This document shows, in pieces, positions 12,001 through 60,000 of a stretch of 64,000 bases of DNA (positions within the stretch are counted from its first letter, which is position 1; every line of letters starts with the position of its first letter). Where the stretch lies: the NCBI GenBank assembly GCA_964464605.1, contig CAYXJN010000004.1, positions 1-64,000 of the forward strand, read 5' to 3'. This stretch comes from an uncultured Ignavibacteriales bacterium (lineage in GTDB: Bacteria; Zixibacteria; MSB-5A5; GN15; FEB-12). A program made the position numbers.

Positions 12001-15000
12001 CCCCGTCGTGTCTATACGAATACACATTTCGAATACATCGGCCGTGTTGCTGAGGCGATTACCGCGCGGAAGAAAAATATCAATGGCTACAAAATCACCC
12101 GTCAGGCGGAATTGCTGAGGCATTTTACCTGTGATTTAGCACCATTGGCAGCGAATGCAGTATCATCGCATGCGTAAGAGGCTTCTTTTCGGTTTGCTTT
12201 TGCTTGGCCTCGTCGCGTTTGGCGGATGCAGTTCAATCAAAATTGAAACCGGAGAAACACCGGAAGAGAAAAACGAATCGACGCAGGAACAGGCGCGGCA
12301 GTTTCGCGTTCGGTGGTCCTCCGATTTTGAACGTGCATCGGAACTGAGAAAAGTTGAATTGCTCATAGCCCATGTTCAGCGGATGGAAAACTGGTATCAA
12401 CAGCTTGGTGATACGCTCACGCATCGCTGGCAACAGGGGAACATCGGACGGGGAGAACCGATTAGTGCAAGTGAGATGAGTCAGATTGTCGAAAACTCAC
12501 TCGCGCCGCATAAGCCGATGTTAAACGCATGGGATGAGATGATCGAGTACGGCGTGCGGAGAATCAGTGAATTGAAATACTTCGCGCCCGATGTGCTCAC
12601 GCAGATTGATGCTTTGGTCGATCAGTTTTACAAATTCAGCAGCGTGGTCAGATATCCGAGCGGTGAATTCGTCGATTACGACCAGAAGATCCGGATCGAA
12701 GCACAGGATTTTGACGGTAAAATGACCGATTTACAAACCTGGCTTAAAACCCAGTAACTACGAATATGTGAATCTGGTTTCACCTATTGGCTGTGAAATT
12801 GAGATTTTACATTTGAGAGTCTCAAACGTCTTTTCCCTAAGGTCCTACTAAGCTGTTACAAAACAATAAATTACATATTCGTCTCATCCTGACCGCCTGC
12901 TTGGCTGAGTTTTTGCCGGGTAAAAGCGGGAATGAGTCCGGCTGCACTTGACTATTTAGCCGGAACTTTATAGATTCAAACGAGTTAAACAGTTGTCACC
13001 CCTTTTGGAGGATCTCTATAGACCCACAGTTCACGAGTGATTGATGTAAGGCAACAAGCCATAACGCTGAAAGGCTGACTCGTACCCTGTGAGTTTATCT
13101 CGCGCAGTTGTTGAGACTGCGTTTTTCCAATCAGCTTCGTATTCATTACTGCTGCCATTTGCATTGGCGGCCGGGATGAGTTTTCTCTGTTTTGCGGATG
13201 CCCACGCTGCCGTAAAAGAGCCGGTTACCGTTTTGTCGTCAACTGCAGACGGCTTCAGTGCTCGCGTTGCTATCGACTTTTCGAAATTAGAATGGGCGCA
13301 GGCTACTGACTCATTGCTCGCCGGATTTTACACAATTCAAGTCGGCATCCCATATGGCGCGACGGTACAATTACTTTCCGCACGTGGTGTGGCTGAAGCT
13401 ACTTTCAATCAGATACCAAACGTATTTCCGAATCAAAAACTCGCGCCGATGGAACTGGTGAAAGTCGGCCGTCCAATCGTTACCCGCGGTCGCACGACTG
13501 TTGGGGTGCGAATCTATCCGGTGCAGAACAAAACCTGTTATCAGTCAGTTGAGTTTTCACTCCGCTTTGTCGGTGGTGAAAAGACGTATAGCGAACTGCA
13601 GCCGGATGGCCGCTTCGATCGGATGTACGATGCCGCTGTTGCCAATCATGCTGAAGCGAAAGCATGGCTTGCCCCTGTTGCACAGCCGACTGCCGATGCG
13701 AACGCAGTCGGTGAGTTTTCCAACTCTACGATCTGGTGTAAAGCGAAAATCGGTACGACCGGTATTTACCGGATTACCGGGGCGCAGTTGAACGGAATCG
13801 GTATTAACGTGACCAATTTACGGTCTGACTCGGTTCGTGTCTTTTCCGGTTCCGGGTTGCCGCTACCGGTACATAATGATTCCGCCCGTCCCGCACTTGA
13901 AGAATTAGCAATTCAGATTCAGGATGGCGGTGATGGATTTTTCGGTGCGAATGATACCCTGTTGTTTTTCGGTGAATCAGTCGACCGGTATACCTATTCC
14001 CAAACCGGCGCAGCACATTTCGTGAGTAATCCGTATATCGATCAGAATGTGTATTGGATAGCGATTGGCGGAACGTATGTAACAGCGCCACGACGCATGA
14101 GTTCAGTCGACGGAACACCCAGTGGTATCGTTGATACGACGATTACTACATTCACCCGCTACGCTCACGCCGGACAAAATACACTGCTTCGCCGTTACTA
14201 CGATGGAGAAATACCGGAGTATTACACTTGGTATTGGTCGAGTGACCGGAACTTCAGTTTCTTTATCGCAACGCCCGGTTATATCACTGGCGACACGGCG
14301 CAGTTGTTTTTCTACGGACAAACATTTGACACTTCCGGTACCGGACCGCAAACCGGTTTTATGAATATGCGCGTGAACGGTGTTTCCGGATTGAACAAGA
14401 ATTGCTCGATCGATTCCTGCTATTTTCGCAGCAATCAACTGCGCGATGGGTTAAGCACGATCGATTTAACTCTGTTCCCGATTGCCTACGCGCCCGGCTA
14501 TTTCGATTTTGTCGATATCCGCTACCGCAGCCGCTTGACCCCGGCCAATAACCAGCTCGATATGCAGTTTGCGCCGTTCACTGGCATCGCCAACGTTCAG
14601 ATAACCGATAACATGACCGGTACCGCCCGAGTCTGGGATGTGACCGATGGCCACGCACCGGTTAACGTTACGAATTTCACCCGCTCTGCCGGTACGCTTT
14701 CATACAATTACGCGCTTGCTTCGACTGCGATGACCCGAATGTACACCGCGACCAGTGCCGCATTGTTAGCGCCGTTGTCACTTCAGCAGGTGCAGCCGAC
14801 AGATCTTCGCGCAAACAGTTCGCAAACAGATTTACTGATTGTAACGCCCCTTAATTTGCAGAATGCGGTCAATGAATATGTCACGCTGAAAGAACAGGAG
14901 GGGGCTTCAGTCACTGTCGCGACGATTGAAAATATCATGGATAATTTCGGTTGGGGGCTGTATGACCCGACTGCGATTCGTGATTTCCTGAAATATTCGT

Positions 15001-57000: not shown

Positions 57001-60000
57001 AGCGACCACCGACAAGAAAGACTGGGTTTACCGGCTGACCATCGCGTACAACTTTAGCCGTCAGGTCAGCGGCGGCCTTGAAGGATACTGGCAGGATTCC
57101 AGCGATGGCGTCCGCGAACGGGATACGCATACCCGCAGCTTGAATATCTTTGCGGAGATGGGTTTCTAAGCGTATAGTACGGTACGATGACCGAAATACG
57201 CTCCCCCCGCGACATCCCTTCAGTCGAAACGGTAACCGCACAGTGCGAAAAAGTGGAATCGCTTGCAAATATTCCTCGTACGGTGCTGGTTGCGGCCGTA
57301 CAAGCGGTAGTCGAAACGCTTCGCAGTCAGCTTCAGAAAAAATCAATCTCGTTTACCATGAAGCAGATACAAAAAAGAGTGGTTGATGCCGTGCGAAGCT
57401 CGCATGCCTCGCAATTACGACGGGTGATTAACGCGACCGGAATCGTTGTACATACCAATCTTGGCCGTTCACCGCTTGCTTCGCACTTGCTTGTCGATAT
57501 AGAGCCGCTCTTGACAGGATACAGCAATGTCGAGTTCGATTTGGAAACCGGTGCGCGCGGTAAACGCGGAGAGATGGTGGAAAGTTATTTGGCGCAGCTT
57601 TCAACCGCCGAAGCAGGAACAGTGGTTAATAATAATGCCGCCGCGCTGTTTATGATTCTGAACACGTTTGCTGCGCGGAAAGAAGTTGTAATCTCCCGTG
57701 GGGAGTTAGTGCAAATAGGGGGCGGGTTCCGCATTCCAGATATTCTCAGTCGTGCCGGTGCAAAGTTGGTCGAAGTCGGTACGACCAATATCACTACTCT
57801 TGCTGATTACGAAAACGGAATTACCGCAAAAACCGCCATGATACTGAAAGTGCATAAAAGCAACTTCACGCAAACCGGATTTACCAAAGATGTTGCTATC
57901 CCCGAACTTGTACCGTTAGCGCGAAAGCATCAGTGCCTTCTGGTGAATGATCTGGGAAGCGGTCTGTTTTTTTCGACGAAACAATTGCTCGGTTACGAAG
58001 AGCCGACAGTGCAGCGCTCAGTGTCGGACGGCGCCGATCTGACCTGTTTTTCGGGCGACAAAATGCTCGGCGGTGTGCAGGCAGGATTGATTGTCGGCAA
58101 ACAGGAACTCGTTTCCAAAATCAAAAAGAACCCGCTCTTCCGGGCAATGCGGGTAGACAAAATTACGTTTGCCGTGTTAGAACGGCTGCTTGCTTCCTAT
58201 CTGAACGGTTCACACACTACCGATATTGCCGTATGGTCGATGCTTTCGATTCCGGAAGCGGAACTCTACAAACGGGCCAAAGCGATGGTGAAATCGGCCG
58301 GAGAGCCGAAAGGGGTTTCGGTCGAGGCAACCAAAGCATACTTAGGCGGCGGCGCGATGCCGGAGGAAGCGATTCCGTCCGTCGCGATAATTTTTGCCAG
58401 TACGTTTTCGGCAACTGCCCTGCAAAAAAAATTCCGGAATCATGCGATACCGATTATCGGACGAATCGAAGCGGGCCGCTTTATGCTCGATATCAAAGCA
58501 GTCGCTCTTTCCGATGATGCGGTCCTTATCGAAGCTATCCGCGCTGCTGTTGCGTAATCTATTCGGCCATGATTGTCATTGGAACCGCCGGGCATATCGA
58601 TCACGGAAAATCATCAATAGTCGAACGGCTCACCGGCACTAATCCGGATAGATTGCCTGAAGAGAAAGAACGGGGGATGACGATCGATTTGGGTTTCGCT
58701 TTTTATCTCACGCCAGGCAATGAAACGATAGCGATTGTCGATGTTCCGGGGCATGAGCGGTTTGTCAAAAACATGATTGCAGGAGCGGGGGGAATCGATG
58801 TCGCTATGCTGGTAATTGCGGCCGATGACGGCTGGATGCCGCAAAGCACCGAACATTTTCATATTCTTCGCCTGCTCGGCATTCGGCATGGAATAATCAT
58901 TATCAATAAGTGCGATTTGGTAACACAGGAACGAGTCGATTCTGTTATTGCTGATATCAAATACCATGTGCAGAATTCATTTTTGACGCATGCTCCATTG
59001 TTTACTCTTTCTGCAGTAACAGGACTCGGGTTTGGTGATTTGCGCGCTTACCTGAATCAATTACCGCAGAAGGTGGCGAGCCGTCAGGATACCGGCAAGC
59101 CTCGTTTGTGCATCGACCGTTCATTCATTCGCCCCGGTATCGGCGGGGTGGCAACCGGCACACTGCGCGGTGGGAGTTTGCGCGTGGGACAGGAAGTAAC
59201 AATCTGGCCGTCCAAAACGGGATCGAAAATTCGCACGCTGCAATCGAACAATCAATCTGTCGAAACCGCCCAGCTGGGGCAGCGCACCGCACTTTCCTTG
59301 TCCGGTATTGATAAATCACTCTTAGAACGTGGTGGGGTCATATCGGATCGGTTTGATTTAACGTATCTGGTCGAAAATCCTATTTTGGCACTCACAATTG
59401 AACTCCTGTCCGACTCGTCGGTTCCCCTCAAAACCGGGCGGCGTGTTTTGGTGTTAGCCGGAACGGCAGAGGTTGAAGGGGAGATACGAACCTGGAACAA
59501 CGAAGATATTTTGCCAGGCAAAAGCGGCTGCTGCTTTTTCATTCCGGATTCCGCGCTTTACACGCTAATAGGTGATTCAGTCATTCTCAGATTACCGACG
59601 CCGATGGTCACGATCGGCGGTGCACGGGTGCTTGATCGGTTAGCGCGCCCGCCGAGATTACGAGAACTACCTTCGTTCCAATATCTAAGAAATCGAAATG
59701 TCGATGACCCGGAAAGCTTGGTACGAAGCGAACTGCACAAGTATCTGCTGGTTCCTGCTTCATCGCTTTTGAGCTGGGCCGATTATTCTCCTAACACAAT
59801 TGAGTCAGCCGTCGCTGCTTGCAAAGCTAAGGGACTTCTGCAAGAACGTGATGGGTATTTATATGATCCAAACCACCTGCAAACGAACATAGCAGGATTG
59901 AAAACTAAAATTGAAGATCGAATCAAGCAATCGATATCGCTGAAAGGAATCCGGGCGGAACAGGTTGCGTCTGATTTCGGTTTCGATCTGTCTGCAACGC

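What a model noticed while it worked through the whole genome (the two positions that open the first line are those of the whole stretch)
13176..57169. A type IX secretion system with ten PorV paralogs but no detectable PorK/L/M/N motor-ring genes
The genome encodes the T9SS translocon SprA/Sov (g01038), sortase PorU (g01011), regulator PorX (g01938), ten PorV/PorQ-family barrels and at least 25 proteins with a T9SS C-terminal sorting domain, yet no GldK/PorK, GldL/PorL, GldM/PorM or GldN/PorN can be found; seven of the ten PorV paralogs sit beside a large cargo-like gene, three of them in TonB-dependent-receptor / ~1000-aa protein / PorV triads. I read this as a pared-down T9SS that works without the canonical PorLM-PorKN motor and ring, drawing its energy from another inner-membrane stator (the ExbB-ExbD2-TonB4 cluster g01158-1164 is the candidate left), with private PorV shuttles for individual cargoes. 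If true, the PorLM motor is [...]
Evidence so far: NCBIfam table: Sov/SprA 1, PorU 1, PorX 1, PorV/PorQ family 10, T9SS type A sorting domain 25 genes; Pfam Por_Secre_tail 19; no family named Gld*, PorK/L/M/N/P/T/W; the one FGE-sulfatase domain is inside a Ser/Thr kinase, g00205. Six-frame HMM search of this genome (100% complete): TIGR03517 GldM and TIGR03513 GldL no hit at E<=0.01; Pfam GldM_1st best E 0.15, GldM_4th none at E<=10; TIGR03525 GldK only a 26-residue, 17-bit touch (E 0.004) inside kinase g00205; TIGR03523 GldN none at E<=0.01. TIGR03517 in 31 genomes >=95% complete across the phylum: 0 of 31 at E<=0.001. Gene order round each PorV paralog is printed in call 112: triads g00756-757-758, g02295-294-293, g02209-208-207; PorV besi [...]
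(Added by a program. Inside this text positions count along the whole contig: contig position 1 is position 1 of the stretch shown here. "Call 12" and the like, gene names such as g00115 and contig names such as C1 are that model's own, and its searches are not shown. The text may have been shortened before it was handed on; [...] marks where a part breaks off. The agent that wrote the report below was given it as the finding of a first reader that could run no searches.)

Follow-up and report, generated by a model that had tools for sequence, protein, structure and literature searches.

The report
Type IX secretion without its motor

Summary
The window carries PorU, an 886-aa PorV-family barrel, a CTD-tagged M6-like protein and, 30 kb on, SprA/Sov. 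The genome has ten PorV/PorQ-family genes, 28 type-A CTD matches and PorX. GldL, GldM, GldN, GldL_N and a PorK-type FGE lipoprotein are not found. The same searches ring in 8-10 of 8-10 Bacteroidota genomes that have the operon. The pattern is not peculiar to this genome. In its phylum SprA is found in 120 of 121 genomes and GldM in 0 of 121. It recurs in 36 PorU-bearing genomes labelled Zixibacteria, KSB1, Latescibacterota, Calditrichaeota, Ignavibacteria, Kapabacteria, Kryptoniota and Chlorobi. One 2024 paper notes in a sentence that Ignavibacterium and Melioribacter have only SprA, PorV and Plug. I read this as a conserved core-only T9SS with no GldLM-type motor. Its energy source is unknown. 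The ExbBD-TonB guess has no specific support. The PorV paralogues next to cargo look like dedicated carriers or anchors. Caveat: a Balneolales genome has a barely detectable L-M-?-K operon, so sequence searches alone cannot prove absence. It is a new variant of a known system, of moderate to high interest.

The parts
13089..17006 (+). PorU, the T9SS sortase (1305 aa; C25 peptidase domain; C-terminal Ig-like CTD)
   Evidence: NF033707 711 bits (cut-off 420); Pfam Peptidase_C25 273 bits; FlgD_ig at 1219-1287. Homologues in 80 of 80 loci fetched.
17023..19683 (+). PorV/PorQ-family outer-membrane barrel (886 aa). A ~550-aa beta-blade/helix insert follows the first PorV segment.
   Evidence: NF033709 194 bits at residues 620-885, plus profile positions 3-42 at residues ~30-67. 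AF2 model pLDDT 79, pTM 0.71. Foldseek best matches are the PorV chains 8gl6_F (E 3e-15, TMt 0.60) and 6h3i_F. The insert resembles HTCS sensor propellers and PorZ 5m11 (E 1.6e-7), at low TM. The long form (812-975 aa, whole ORFs) is specific to the Zixi-type loci; elsewhere the gene is 324-442 aa.
19703..22978 (+). M6-like, probably inactive, metalloprotease with FG-GAP repeats and a type-A CTD. It is a conserved partner or cargo of PorU-PorV.
   Evidence: NF052323 268 bits (below cut-off 600); TIGR04183 21.5 bits in hmmscan and 26.1 bits in the genome search; Pfam FG-GAP. Syntenic in 56 of 80 loci. The family is found in 29 of 37 PorU-type genomes and 0 of 14 canonical GldM+ genomes.
22975..23919 (+). 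DUF5683-family envelope protein (314 aa): signal peptide, PGxGQxY helical hairpin with a conserved Glu, conserved C-terminal Phe
   Evidence: PF18935 34 bits. Syntenic in 45 of 80 loci, including Ignavibacteria-, Chlorobi- and Kryptoniota-labelled ones. Conservation. AF2 pLDDT 81, helical, no PDB match.
23919..24737 (+). Second, diverged DUF5683-like protein (272 aa)
   Evidence: PF18935 E 0.0047. Same motif and same terminal Phe. Found in 34 of 80 loci.
24746..25738 (+). NHL-repeat lipoprotein-like protein (330 aa)
   Evidence: Pfam NHL 62.8 bits. N-terminal 'LCAC' lipobox-like motif read from the sequence. Found in 29 of 80 loci.
25656..28991 (+). 1111-aa secreted or outer-membrane protein of an unnamed family that shares a ~60-aa motif with SprA
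   Evidence: TIGR04189 E 1.3e-4 at residues 305-362. BLASTP against the window's SprA gives E 6e-7 over 233-363. Nearest Atlas clusters are unnamed; SprA-family and Porin_4 clusters score only 0.87-0.88. Found in 25 of 80 loci, a count limited by flank length.
28912..30612 (+). Omp85/BamA-family barrel (566 aa), last gene of the + strand run
   Evidence: Pfam Omp85 50 bits; TIGR03303 60 bits, below cut-off. Not seen in the fetched flanks: 0 of 80, probably beyond the 10 kb fetched.
51041..57169 (+). SprA/Sov, the T9SS outer-membrane translocon (2042 aa)
   Evidence: TIGR04189 573 bits (cut-off 200); Pfam SprA_N 75 bits. Present in 120 of 121 genomes of the phylum.

Best explanation
The window encodes the outer-membrane core of a type IX secretion system, in an organism and a phylum (Zixibacteria) with no PorL/PorM motor, no PorK/PorN ring and no PorP/SprF carriers.

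LIKELY WORKING (inferred by homology with the Flavobacterium/Porphyromonas system). Sec-exported proteins carrying a type-A C-terminal domain enter the SprA barrel. PorV-family barrels take them over. The PorU sortase then cleaves them and attaches them to the surface. PorU is encoded in an operon with a PorV that bears a large propeller-like insert, a CTD-tagged M6-like protein and DUF5683 proteins. Several of the ten PorV/PorQ paralogues are encoded next to a large CTD-like protein and probably act as its dedicated carrier or anchor. This is the role PorQ plays for PorZ, and PorP/SprF proteins play for type-B cargo, in Bacteroidia.

SHOWN. The gene content. The conservation of the core. The lack of any detectable motor or ring gene under searches that find them where they exist.

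INFERRED. That the system is active. That it runs without a GldLM-type proton motor. On this view the release of the carrier-cargo complex from SprA is driven by binding, folding and sortase processing, or by a coupling device not yet recognised.
For: CORE PRESENT AND CONSERVED. PorU, PorV-family, M6-like CTD protein and SprA are in the window. The genome has ten PorV-family genes, 28 CTD matches and PorX at 650 bits. SprA is found in 120 of 121 phylum genomes, all >=90% complete. The order PorU-PorV-M6i-DUF5683 is kept across loci labelled as several phyla.

MOTOR AND RING NOT FOUND.
- Own genome.
- GldM: 0 of 121 in the phylum and 0 of 36 PorU-bearing genomes of other labels.
- GldL, GldN and GldL_N: 0 of 37 each, against 10/10, 10/10 and 8/8 controls.
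- Profiles built from a diverged Balneolales L and M find nothing in 10,304 own ORFs (best E 0.029 and 0.051) nor by six-frame search.
- No FGE lipoprotein, although the diverged Balneolales PorK-like protein still scores 164 bits.
- A topology scan for 2-TM + 1-TM gene pairs gave only NfeD-SPFH and an LpoB-like pair.
- All four MotA/ExbB-family genes are accounted for: flagellar MotAB, Tol-Pal, TonB and an orphan MotAB.

GENERALITY. In the phylum of G013, 49 of 61 genomes have SprA and 15 have GldM.

LITERATURE. In print for Ignavibacteria: PorV, SprA and Plug 'but no other T9SS protein' (PMC11705866, passage).

CARRIER IDEA. Neighbours of the paralogues carry C-terminal Ig/CTD-like domains. 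The complex model scores 0.93 in each of three runs against a best control of 0.15. That mark was reached by 51 of 78 solved complexes and 2 of 108 mismatches. The runs agree in >=95% of contacts and the partner's pLDDT is >=81.
Against: ABSENCE RESTS ON SEQUENCE PROFILES. GldL and GldM evolve fast. The Balneolales operon in G059 is only just seen by the standard models (GldL_N 23-24 bits, GldM 36-38 bits). Its L profile does not find canonical GldL in 0 of 6 controls. A still more diverged or non-homologous motor could therefore be missed.

No structure-based screen of all inner-membrane proteins was done. Only two proteins were folded, and both belong to the outer membrane or envelope.

In the studied systems secretion needs the proton-motive force and the energy chain (PMC12635249, introduction passages). 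No motor-free T9SS has been shown to work.

PorX, which in P. gingivalis contacts PorL (recalled, not from a call), is kept at equivalog level. That could hint at an unseen partner.

No expression or secretion data were examined. The complex pass may be memory of the solved PorV-CTD complex (8GL6), and it says nothing on which paralogue binds which cargo.
Confidence: 0.55

Rival explanations
1. A motor and ring do exist, but they are too diverged from PorL/M/K/N, or are non-homologous analogues, and so escape the profiles. They are hidden among uncharacterised envelope genes.
For: G059 (proteins named Candidatus Cyclonatronum) has an operon of L(241 aa)-M(380 aa)-309 aa-K(660 aa). The standard models barely detect it. 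Its L profile and the canonical L family do not cross-detect. Conserved unknown genes sit next to PorU-PorV: two DUF5683 proteins with a conserved Glu in a hydrophobic helix, an NHL lipoprotein and the 1111-aa protein. PorX is retained.
Against: PorK's FGE fold stays easy to detect even in G059 (164 bits), and the own genome has no such lipoprotein. 0 of 121 phylum genomes give any GldM match at E<=0.001. No GldL/GldM-like gene pair was found by topology. The conserved unknowns have signal peptides and a terminal Phe, and the P. gingivalis DUF5683 protein PG0140 was detected in outer-membrane vesicles (location given as unknown). They therefore look like outer-membrane or envelope proteins, not inner-membrane stators. 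DUF5683 also occurs in all 12 canonical/Rhodothermia-type genomes tested, so it does not replace the motor.
Confidence: 0.2
2. The system is energised by another 5:2 stator already in the genome: the ExbB-ExbD-ExbD-TonBx4 cluster or Tol-Pal. A TonB/TolA-like arm would act on SprA or on PorV-family barrels.
For: These are the only proton-driven envelope-spanning systems left besides the flagellar stators. The cluster has four TonB paralogues. Three PorV paralogues are encoded next to TonB-dependent receptors.
Against: There is no synteny with SprA, PorU or PorV. TonB and Tol systems are near-universal in diderms, so their presence says nothing. No TonB box or plug domain was seen in SprA or PorV (no such family; no dedicated search was made). 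The TBDR-cargo-PorV triads are as well explained as nutrient-uptake loci whose surface protein is delivered by T9SS.
Confidence: 0.12
3. The SprA/PorU/PorV set here is not a working secretion system. It is a relic, or serves another role such as outer-membrane biogenesis or surface-protein anchoring only.
For: No functional data exist for Zixibacteria. None of the ten PorV-family genes reaches the PorV or PorQ equivalog cut-off. The window's SprA matches only profile positions 428-1890 of 2319.
Against: SprA is kept in 120 of 121 genomes across 19 families of the phylum. There are 28 intact CTD-tagged ORFs, up to 3503 aa as open reading frames. Operon order is conserved across phyla. A paper passage reports that the CTD-bearing xylanase of Rhodothermus marinus is cell-attached (PMC6539836). 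Genome G044, whose proteins carry that species' name, has SprA and PorU but no detectable GldL/M/N.
Confidence: 0.05

Closest known systems
Canonical T9SS of Flavobacterium johnsoniae / Porphyromonas gingivalis (SprA/Sov, PorV, PorU, PorZ, PorQ, PorL/M motor, PorK/N ring or track, PorP/SprF carriers)
   Same: SprA translocon, PorU sortase, PorV-family barrel (fold match to PorV chains 8gl6_F and 6h3i_F), type-A CTD cargo and the PorX regulator.
   Different: No detectable PorL, PorM, PorN, PorK-type lipoprotein or PorP/SprF family. PorV carries a ~550-aa insert. An M6-like CTD protein and DUF5683 genes sit in the PorU-PorV operon. The M6-like family was found in 0 of 14 canonical genomes.
SprA-PorV-Plug-only state reported for Ignavibacterium and Melioribacter (PMC11705866, one sentence; passage seen)
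   Same: Translocon parts present without the other T9SS proteins. My searches give the same picture for Ignavibacteria-labelled genomes.
   Different: That paper does not mention Zixibacteria or PorU, and does not discuss energisation in the passages I saw. I did not test for Plug here. This report adds PorU, the conserved operon and the phylum-wide counts.
Type-B cargo with dedicated PorP/SprF carriers encoded beside them (described in PMC12635249, introduction)
   Same: The logic of a carrier or anchor barrel encoded next to its own large surface protein.
   Different: The barrels here belong to the PorV/PorQ family, not PorP/SprF. The cargo tails are type-A/Ig-like. There is no GldK track to which a carrier could be disulfide-linked.
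PorU-PorV-PorZ-PorQ attachment complex of P. gingivalis (recalled; the PorZ structure 5M11 appears)
   Same: Sortase plus barrel plus propeller-containing CTD proteins encoded or acting together. The PorV insert and the FG-GAP M6-like protein supply propeller-type domains.
   Different: No PorZ equivalog: NF052228 gives only 25-32 bit touches on CTDs. The propeller-like domain is fused into PorV itself. LPS binding is not tested.
Diverged PorL-PorM-(309 aa)-PorK operon of Balneolales (G059)
   Same: A non-Bacteroidia FCB lineage with SprA, PorU and a strong M6-like protein (1079 bits).
   Different: G059 still has the motor and ring genes, in altered order. The window's genome has no match to them.

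Membership tests
Type IX secretion system | SprA/Sov outer-membrane translocon | tested here: met
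   TIGR04189 573 bits against cut-off 200, window 51041-57169.
Type IX secretion system | PorU C-terminal signal peptidase / sortase | tested here: met
   NF033707 711 bits against cut-off 420.
Type IX secretion system | PorV carrier barrel | tested here: inconclusive
   Family model NF033709 is met by ten genes. The PorV equivalog NF033710 (cut-off 250) is reached by none; the window gene scores 102.8. The fold of the window protein matches solved PorV chains.
Type IX secretion system | Cargo with a type-A C-terminal sorting domain | tested here: met
   28 matches to TIGR04183 over cut-off in the genome.
Type IX secretion system | PorL/GldL-PorM/GldM proton-driven motor | tested here: not met
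   Own genome: no GldM at E<=10. Best GldL hit E 0.0137 and best GldL_N hit E 0.227, both at chance level. Balneolales-type L and M profiles negative. Controls ring. Very diverged forms cannot be excluded.
Type IX secretion system | PorK/GldK-PorN/GldN periplasmic ring or track | tested here: not met
   GldN: 0 matches. The only FGE-sulfatase domain is inside a PknB-like kinase. Controls: GldN 10/10; GldK 597 bits in G087.
Type IX secretion system | PorP/SprF-family carriers for type-B cargo | tested here: not met
   TIGR03519: best own hit 19.3 bits (cut-off 90.55), against 13 copies over cut-off in G087.
Type IX secretion system | PorX response regulator | tested here: met
   NF052313 650.6 bits against cut-off 300, next to a histidine kinase.
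Type IX secretion system | Export depends on the proton-motive force | not testable with these tools
   Needs protonophore and mutant experiments in a cultured relative.
Type IX secretion system | PorW/SprE, PorT, PorE, Plug and other accessory parts | not tested
I did not search for these families.

The most novel reading that the evidence does not exclude
The SprA-PorV-PorU-CTD module is the ancestral, self-sufficient type IX secretion and sorting machine of the FCB superphylum, and it needs no dedicated inner-membrane motor. The PorLM-PorKN energy chain is then a later addition in the Bacteroidia/Balneolales line. That line shares it with gliding motility, and it speeds the removal of carriers from the translocon. 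Outside that line, carrier-cargo release is thermally or chemically driven: by folding, by sortase-coupled attachment, or by multiplying PorV-family carriers and fusing glycan-binding propellers to them.
Probability: 0.3. Interest if true: 0.8.

Novelty: new variant of a known kind. Interest (0 to 1): 0.62.

Why it matters
Current models treat the PorLM motor and the PorKN ring or track as the energy chain that every T9SS needs to eject carrier-cargo complexes from SprA (PMC12635249, passages).

Here a whole phylum keeps the translocon (120 of 121 genomes), and this genome also has the sortase, carriers, regulator and 28 tagged cargoes, with no trace of that chain. The same holds for PorU-bearing genomes of at least seven other taxonomic labels.

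If these systems are active, there are two possibilities. Transport through SprA may not be intrinsically PMF-dependent. Or a second, unknown coupling device exists. Either answer bears on the mechanism and origin of T9SS and of Bacteroidota gliding.

The question is directly testable. Cultured organisms appear to share the motor-less state: Ignavibacterium and Melioribacter according to PMC11705866, and G044, whose proteins are named Rhodothermus marinus.

For annotation, T9SS finders that demand gldKLMN will miss these systems. Abby et al. found T9SS only in Bacteroidetes.

Tried and rejected
1. The weak GldL hit at C6:288819-289172 (E 0.0137). It matches only profile positions 121-238, away from the N-terminal membrane part of GldL. 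It lies in a 504-aa ORF with an N-terminal hydrophobic segment. Ten of 14 control genomes ring at that level. Rejected as chance.

2. Topology scan for a 2-TM protein followed by a bitopic 300-800-aa protein. It gave only an NfeD-SPFH pair and an LpoB-like pair.

3. Neighbourhood of PorX as a lead to a PorL-like partner. It holds only a histidine kinase, SerRS, TsaE and TsaB.

4. DUF5683 as a hidden stator. The family tracks SprA/PorU (48 of 49 genomes against 2 of 12 SprA-negative ones) and has a conserved Glu. But it has a signal peptide and a terminal Phe, it is found in canonical genomes too, and the P. gingivalis member was detected in OMVs. Its model matches no solved fold: Foldseek best E 2.7; VIA-align best Z 7.2, generic long helices.

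5. The 1111-aa protein as a second SprA. Only a ~60-aa shared motif was found. The Atlas similarity to SprA-family clusters is 0.87, a lead only.

6. The first alignment for the genome scan (13 PorU sequences) was too diverse. A 5-sequence alignment worked.

7. McBride and Zhu 2013, which I recalled as covering Rhodothermus, is not held. Its table could bear on G044.

9. No paper pairs 'Zixibacteria' with 'type IX secretion' (0 hits). The searches gave no fuller treatment of motor-less T9SS than the sentence in PMC11705866.

Full report
WHAT IS IN THE WINDOW.

The window is contig C4:1-64000 of a 2.82-Mb, 18-contig genome rated 100% complete. On the + strand there is a run of genes:
- PorU, 13089-17006 (NF033707, 711 bits, cut-off 420; Peptidase_C25).
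- An 886-aa PorV/PorQ-family protein, 17023-19683 (NF033709, 194 bits).
- A 1091-aa M6-like protein with FG-GAP repeats and a type-A CTD, 19703-22978.
- Two DUF5683-type proteins, 22975-23919 and 23919-24737.
- An NHL-repeat protein, 24746-25738.
- A 1111-aa protein of an unnamed family, 25656-28991.
- An Omp85 barrel, 28912-30612.

After about 20 kb of unrelated genes (UbiA, a Bat/MoxR operon, bshC-bshA-bshB1, RecG, MurB) comes SprA/Sov at 51041-57169 (TIGR04189, 573 bits, cut-off 200). The finding's span therefore brackets two separate T9SS loci.

The closest named PorU relatives are labelled Candidatus Zixiibacteriota.

THE OBSERVATION, WITH CONTROLS.

The genome holds ten PorV/PorQ-family genes over the family cut-off. 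None reaches the PorV or PorQ equivalog cut-offs. It also holds 28 type-A CTD matches and a PorX equivalog next to a histidine kinase (650.6 bits).

The motor and ring are not found in it:
- GldM gives nothing at E<=10.
- GldL gives one hit at E 0.0137, a level at which 10 of 14 control genomes also ring.
- GldN gives nothing.
- Pfam GldL_N gives a best E of 0.227.
- The single FGE-sulfatase domain lies in a 944-aa PknB-like kinase.
- PorP/SprF is also absent, against 13 copies in a canonical genome.

I obtained one by sampling the GTDB phylum of an Ignavibacteriales-labelled genome (G013):
- GldM rings in 15 of 61 genomes, 14 of them over cut-off.
- SprA rings in 49 of the same 61.
- All 15 GldM-positive genomes have SprA. 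Thirty-four have SprA without GldM.
- In the GldM-positive genomes tested, GldL and GldN ring in 10 of 10, next to GldM. GldL_N rings in 8 of 8.

HOW GENERAL IT IS.

In the window's own phylum, SprA is found in 120 of 121 genomes and GldM in 0 of 121 at E<=0.001. All are >=90% complete and span 19 families.

A scan of one genome per species with a PorU alignment gave 80 loci. I searched 36 of their genomes. Their labels are Zixibacteria, KSB1, Latescibacterota, Calditrichaeota, Ignavibacteria, Kapabacteria, Kryptoniota, Chlorobi and unspecific 'Bacteroidota'. Results: GldM 0 of 36; GldL, GldN and GldL_N 0 of 37 over cut-off, counting the own genome.

Three genomes with a high-scoring SprA (2030-2630 bits) and PorU (980-995 bits) also lack GldL, GldM and GldN. 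They are G044, G039 and G072. ORFs of G044 are identical to proteins named Rhodothermus marinus, and an ORF of G072 to one named Rhodocaloribacter.

A CAUTION FOUND ON THE WAY.

G059's proteins are named Candidatus Cyclonatronum, Balneolales. It has a four-gene operon:
- 241 aa (GldL_N, 24 bits in hmmscan).
- 380 aa (GldM, 36-38 bits).
- 309 aa, with no match to any family.
- 660 aa (GldK, 164 bits).

Its L family keeps an invariant Glu in the second membrane helix, and its M family keeps a conserved N-terminal helix. So a diverged motor exists outside Bacteroidia and is barely visible to the standard models.

I built profiles from 42 L-type and 21 M-type relatives. They find nothing in the own genome's 10,304 ORFs (best E 0.029 and 0.051). 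Six-frame searches with alignments of 30 L-type and 20 M-type relatives gave the following. The L alignment, searched over all 37 PorU-type genomes, gave only two weak coiled-coil hits. The M alignment was searched in five genomes, among them only G000 and G013 of that set, and matched G059 alone. The L alignment also fails to find canonical GldL in 6 of 6 controls. Sequence searches therefore cannot prove absence.

The strongest argument for true absence is PorK. Its FGE fold remains easy to detect even in G059, and the own genome has no such lipoprotein.

WHAT COULD POWER IT.

The genome has four MotA/ExbB-family genes:
- A flagellar MotAB inside a flagellar/chemotaxis cluster.
- TolQ-TolR-TolA-TolB-Pal.
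- ExbB-ExbD-ExbD followed by four TonB_C genes.
- An orphan MotAB.

None is linked to T9SS genes by position. A topology scan for GldL/GldM-like gene pairs gave nothing relevant. I found no evidence for or against it beyond that.

THE CONSERVED OPERON.

With 10-kb flanks, the genes downstream of PorU recur as follows:
- PorV in 67 of 80 loci.
- The M6-like protein in 56.
- DUF5683 in 45, including Ignavibacteria-, Kryptoniota- and Chlorobi-labelled loci.
- The second DUF5683-like gene in 34.
- NHL in 29.
- The 1111-aa gene in 25.
The last three counts come almost entirely from the loci whose PorU is more than 40% identical to the query (L002-L046 and L065; one is labelled Calditrichaeota), and they are limited by flank length.

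The M6-like family (NF052323, E<=1e-30) occurs in 29 of 37 PorU-type genomes and in G059. It occurs in 0 of 14 canonical GldM-positive genomes and 0 of 3 Rhodothermaceae-type ones.

DUF5683 occurs in 48 of 49 SprA- or PorU-bearing genomes and in 2 of 12 SprA-negative ones. It also rings in the T9SS-less control B. thetaiotaomicron. Its members have a signal peptide, a PGxGQxY hairpin with a conserved Glu and a conserved terminal Phe. The model is helical (pLDDT 81) and matches no solved fold. The only literature is two papers that mention the name. One is a nematode GPCR study that I saw only in the search listing. The other lists P. gingivalis PG0140 in outer-membrane vesicles.

THE LONG PorV.

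The PorV ORFs next to PorU in the Zixi-type loci that are whole are 812-975 aa. One is 1147 aa, and four are cut by a contig end or by N. In other phyla the gene is 324-442 aa.

The model (pLDDT 79, pTM 0.71) has two parts. Residues 625-885 form a barrel whose best Foldseek matches are the PorV chains of the solved F. johnsoniae translocon (8gl6_F, E 3e-15, TMt 0.60; 6h3i_F). Residues ~70-620 form a confidently folded insert of beta-blades and helices. The insert resembles the sensor propellers of Bacteroides hybrid two-component systems and, further down the list, PorZ (5m11, E 1.6e-7). The TM-scores of these matches are low (about 0.2), so the likeness is at the level of repeated blades. Which side of the membrane the insert faces was not determined.

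THE PARALOGUES.

The other nine PorV-family genes have these neighbours:
- Two lie in TBDR / ~1000-aa protein / PorV triads.
- One lies in a TBDR(1114 aa)-PorV-756 aa arrangement.
- One follows an 813-aa protein.
- Two are tandem, behind a 502-aa protein.
- One is two genes from a DUF5683/PEGA protein and 2-4 kb from two CTD-tagged SBBP proteins.
- Two have no obvious cargo nearby.

The adjacent large proteins carry C-terminal Ig/CTD-like domains of varying strength: 502 aa, E 3.4e-7; 909 aa, TIGR04183 24 bits and CHU_C 2.6e-4; 813 aa, E 0.0025; 1053 aa, E 0.008.

I co-folded the C9 paralogue with the last 110 residues of its 909-aa neighbour. The score was 0.93 in three runs against a best control of 0.15. 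That mark was reached by 51 of 78 solved complexes and 2 of 108 mismatches. Contacts agree in >=95%, and the partner's pLDDT is >=81. Because a PorV-CTD complex has been solved (8GL6), this shows likeness to that complex. It does not show that this copy binds, or binds specifically.

Only 4 of 28 CTD genes lie within 5 kb of a paralogue, and 9 within 20 kb. A general carrier plus several dedicated carriers or anchors is the most economical reading. It parallels the type-B carrier logic described for Bacteroidota (PMC12635249, passage).

LITERATURE.

- Full-text search finds no paper pairing Zixibacteria with type IX secretion.
- Abby et al. 2016 detected T9SS only in Bacteroidetes, with models requiring the core genes (PMC4793230, passages).
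- Bochtler et al. 2018 note that BLAST suggests T9SS in Chlorobi, Fibrobacteres and Ignavibacteriae (PMC5837995, passage).
- A 2024 introduction lists further FCB phyla where T9SS 'may also be present' (PMC11285876, passage).
- A passage in PMC6539836 cites work showing that the CTD-bearing xylanase of R. marinus is cell-attached.

I read only these passages, not whole papers or supplements. Supplementary tables of PMC11705866 and of Abby et al. may hold component-by-taxon data that I did not see.

VERDICT.

The interpretation 'T9SS core without PorKLMN' is supported as far as sequence and profile methods reach. The proposed substitute stator is unsupported.

It is a new variant of a known system. 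It has been noticed in passing for Ignavibacteria but, as far as my searches show, has not been analysed or explained. Its value lies in making the energy requirement and the evolutionary order of T9SS parts experimentally testable.

Noticed in passing
G044, G039, G072 (loci L104, L105): Three genomes have a Bacteroidia-like SprA (2030-2630 bits) and PorU (980-995 bits) but no GldL, GldM or GldN by any profile used. ORFs of G044 equal proteins named Rhodothermus marinus, and an ORF of G072 one named Rhodocaloribacter. They have only lone FGE-family genes (71-80 bits to GldK) that are not in a KLMN-like operon. If this holds, a cultured thermophile shares the motor-less state.
   Followed up: partly
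L103:8829-13661 (-), genome G059: A diverged operon with proteins named Candidatus Cyclonatronum (Balneolales): GldL-like (241 aa), GldM-like (380 aa), unknown (309 aa) and PorK-like (660 aa). The order is L-M-?-K rather than K-L-M-N. The standard GldL and GldM models barely detect it.
   Followed up: partly
window 19703-22978 and related loci: The M6-like 'inactivated metalloprotease' family (NF052323) is found in 29 of 37 PorU-type genomes and in G059, but in 0 of 14 canonical GldM-positive genomes. It marks the non-Bacteroidia type of PorU-PorV locus.
   Followed up: partly
window 22975-24737; G000 C2:303776-304510; C10:2271-2861: DUF5683 proteins co-occur with SprA/PorU (48 of 49 genomes against 2 of 12) and twice sit near PorV-family genes in this genome. 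The fold matches nothing solved and the function is unknown.
   Followed up: partly
window 25656-30612: A 1111-aa protein of an unnamed family shares a ~60-aa motif with SprA (also repeated near its own N-terminus) and is followed by an Omp85 barrel. Proteins of 1150-1270 aa in many genomes of the G013 phylum sample hit the same SprA profile segment (positions 604-653).
   Followed up: partly
window 30649-31497: A UbiA-family prenyltransferase whose best matches are archaeal-type geranylgeranylglycerol-phosphate geranylgeranyltransferase models (173-180 bits, below their cut-offs). I recall reports of archaeal-type ether-lipid genes in FCB bacteria. Not checked here.
   Followed up: no
window 31401-40786: A complete Bat/MoxR-type operon: BatD-like, MoxR AAA ATPase, DUF58, BatD-like, BatA, BatB, TPR BatC, BatD, TPR.
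   Followed up: no
window 42983-46453 and 57187-60458: Bacillithiol synthesis genes bshC, bshA and bshB1 lie together. The selenocysteine genes selA and selB lie directly downstream of sprA.
   Followed up: no
G000 C6:24-3428: Two PorV-family genes in tandem (329 and 295 aa) lie directly behind a 502-aa protein with a C-terminal FlgD_ig (CTD-like) domain, at the very start of a contig.
   Followed up: partly
G000 C10:369-1223: An exosortase (EpsH/XrtA-like, 194-197 bits) is encoded two genes from a DUF5683 gene. The genome thus also has a PEP-CTERM-type sorting system.
   Followed up: no
It rings for PorV_fam and DUF5683 but for none of SprA, GldL, GldM or GldN.
   Followed up: yes
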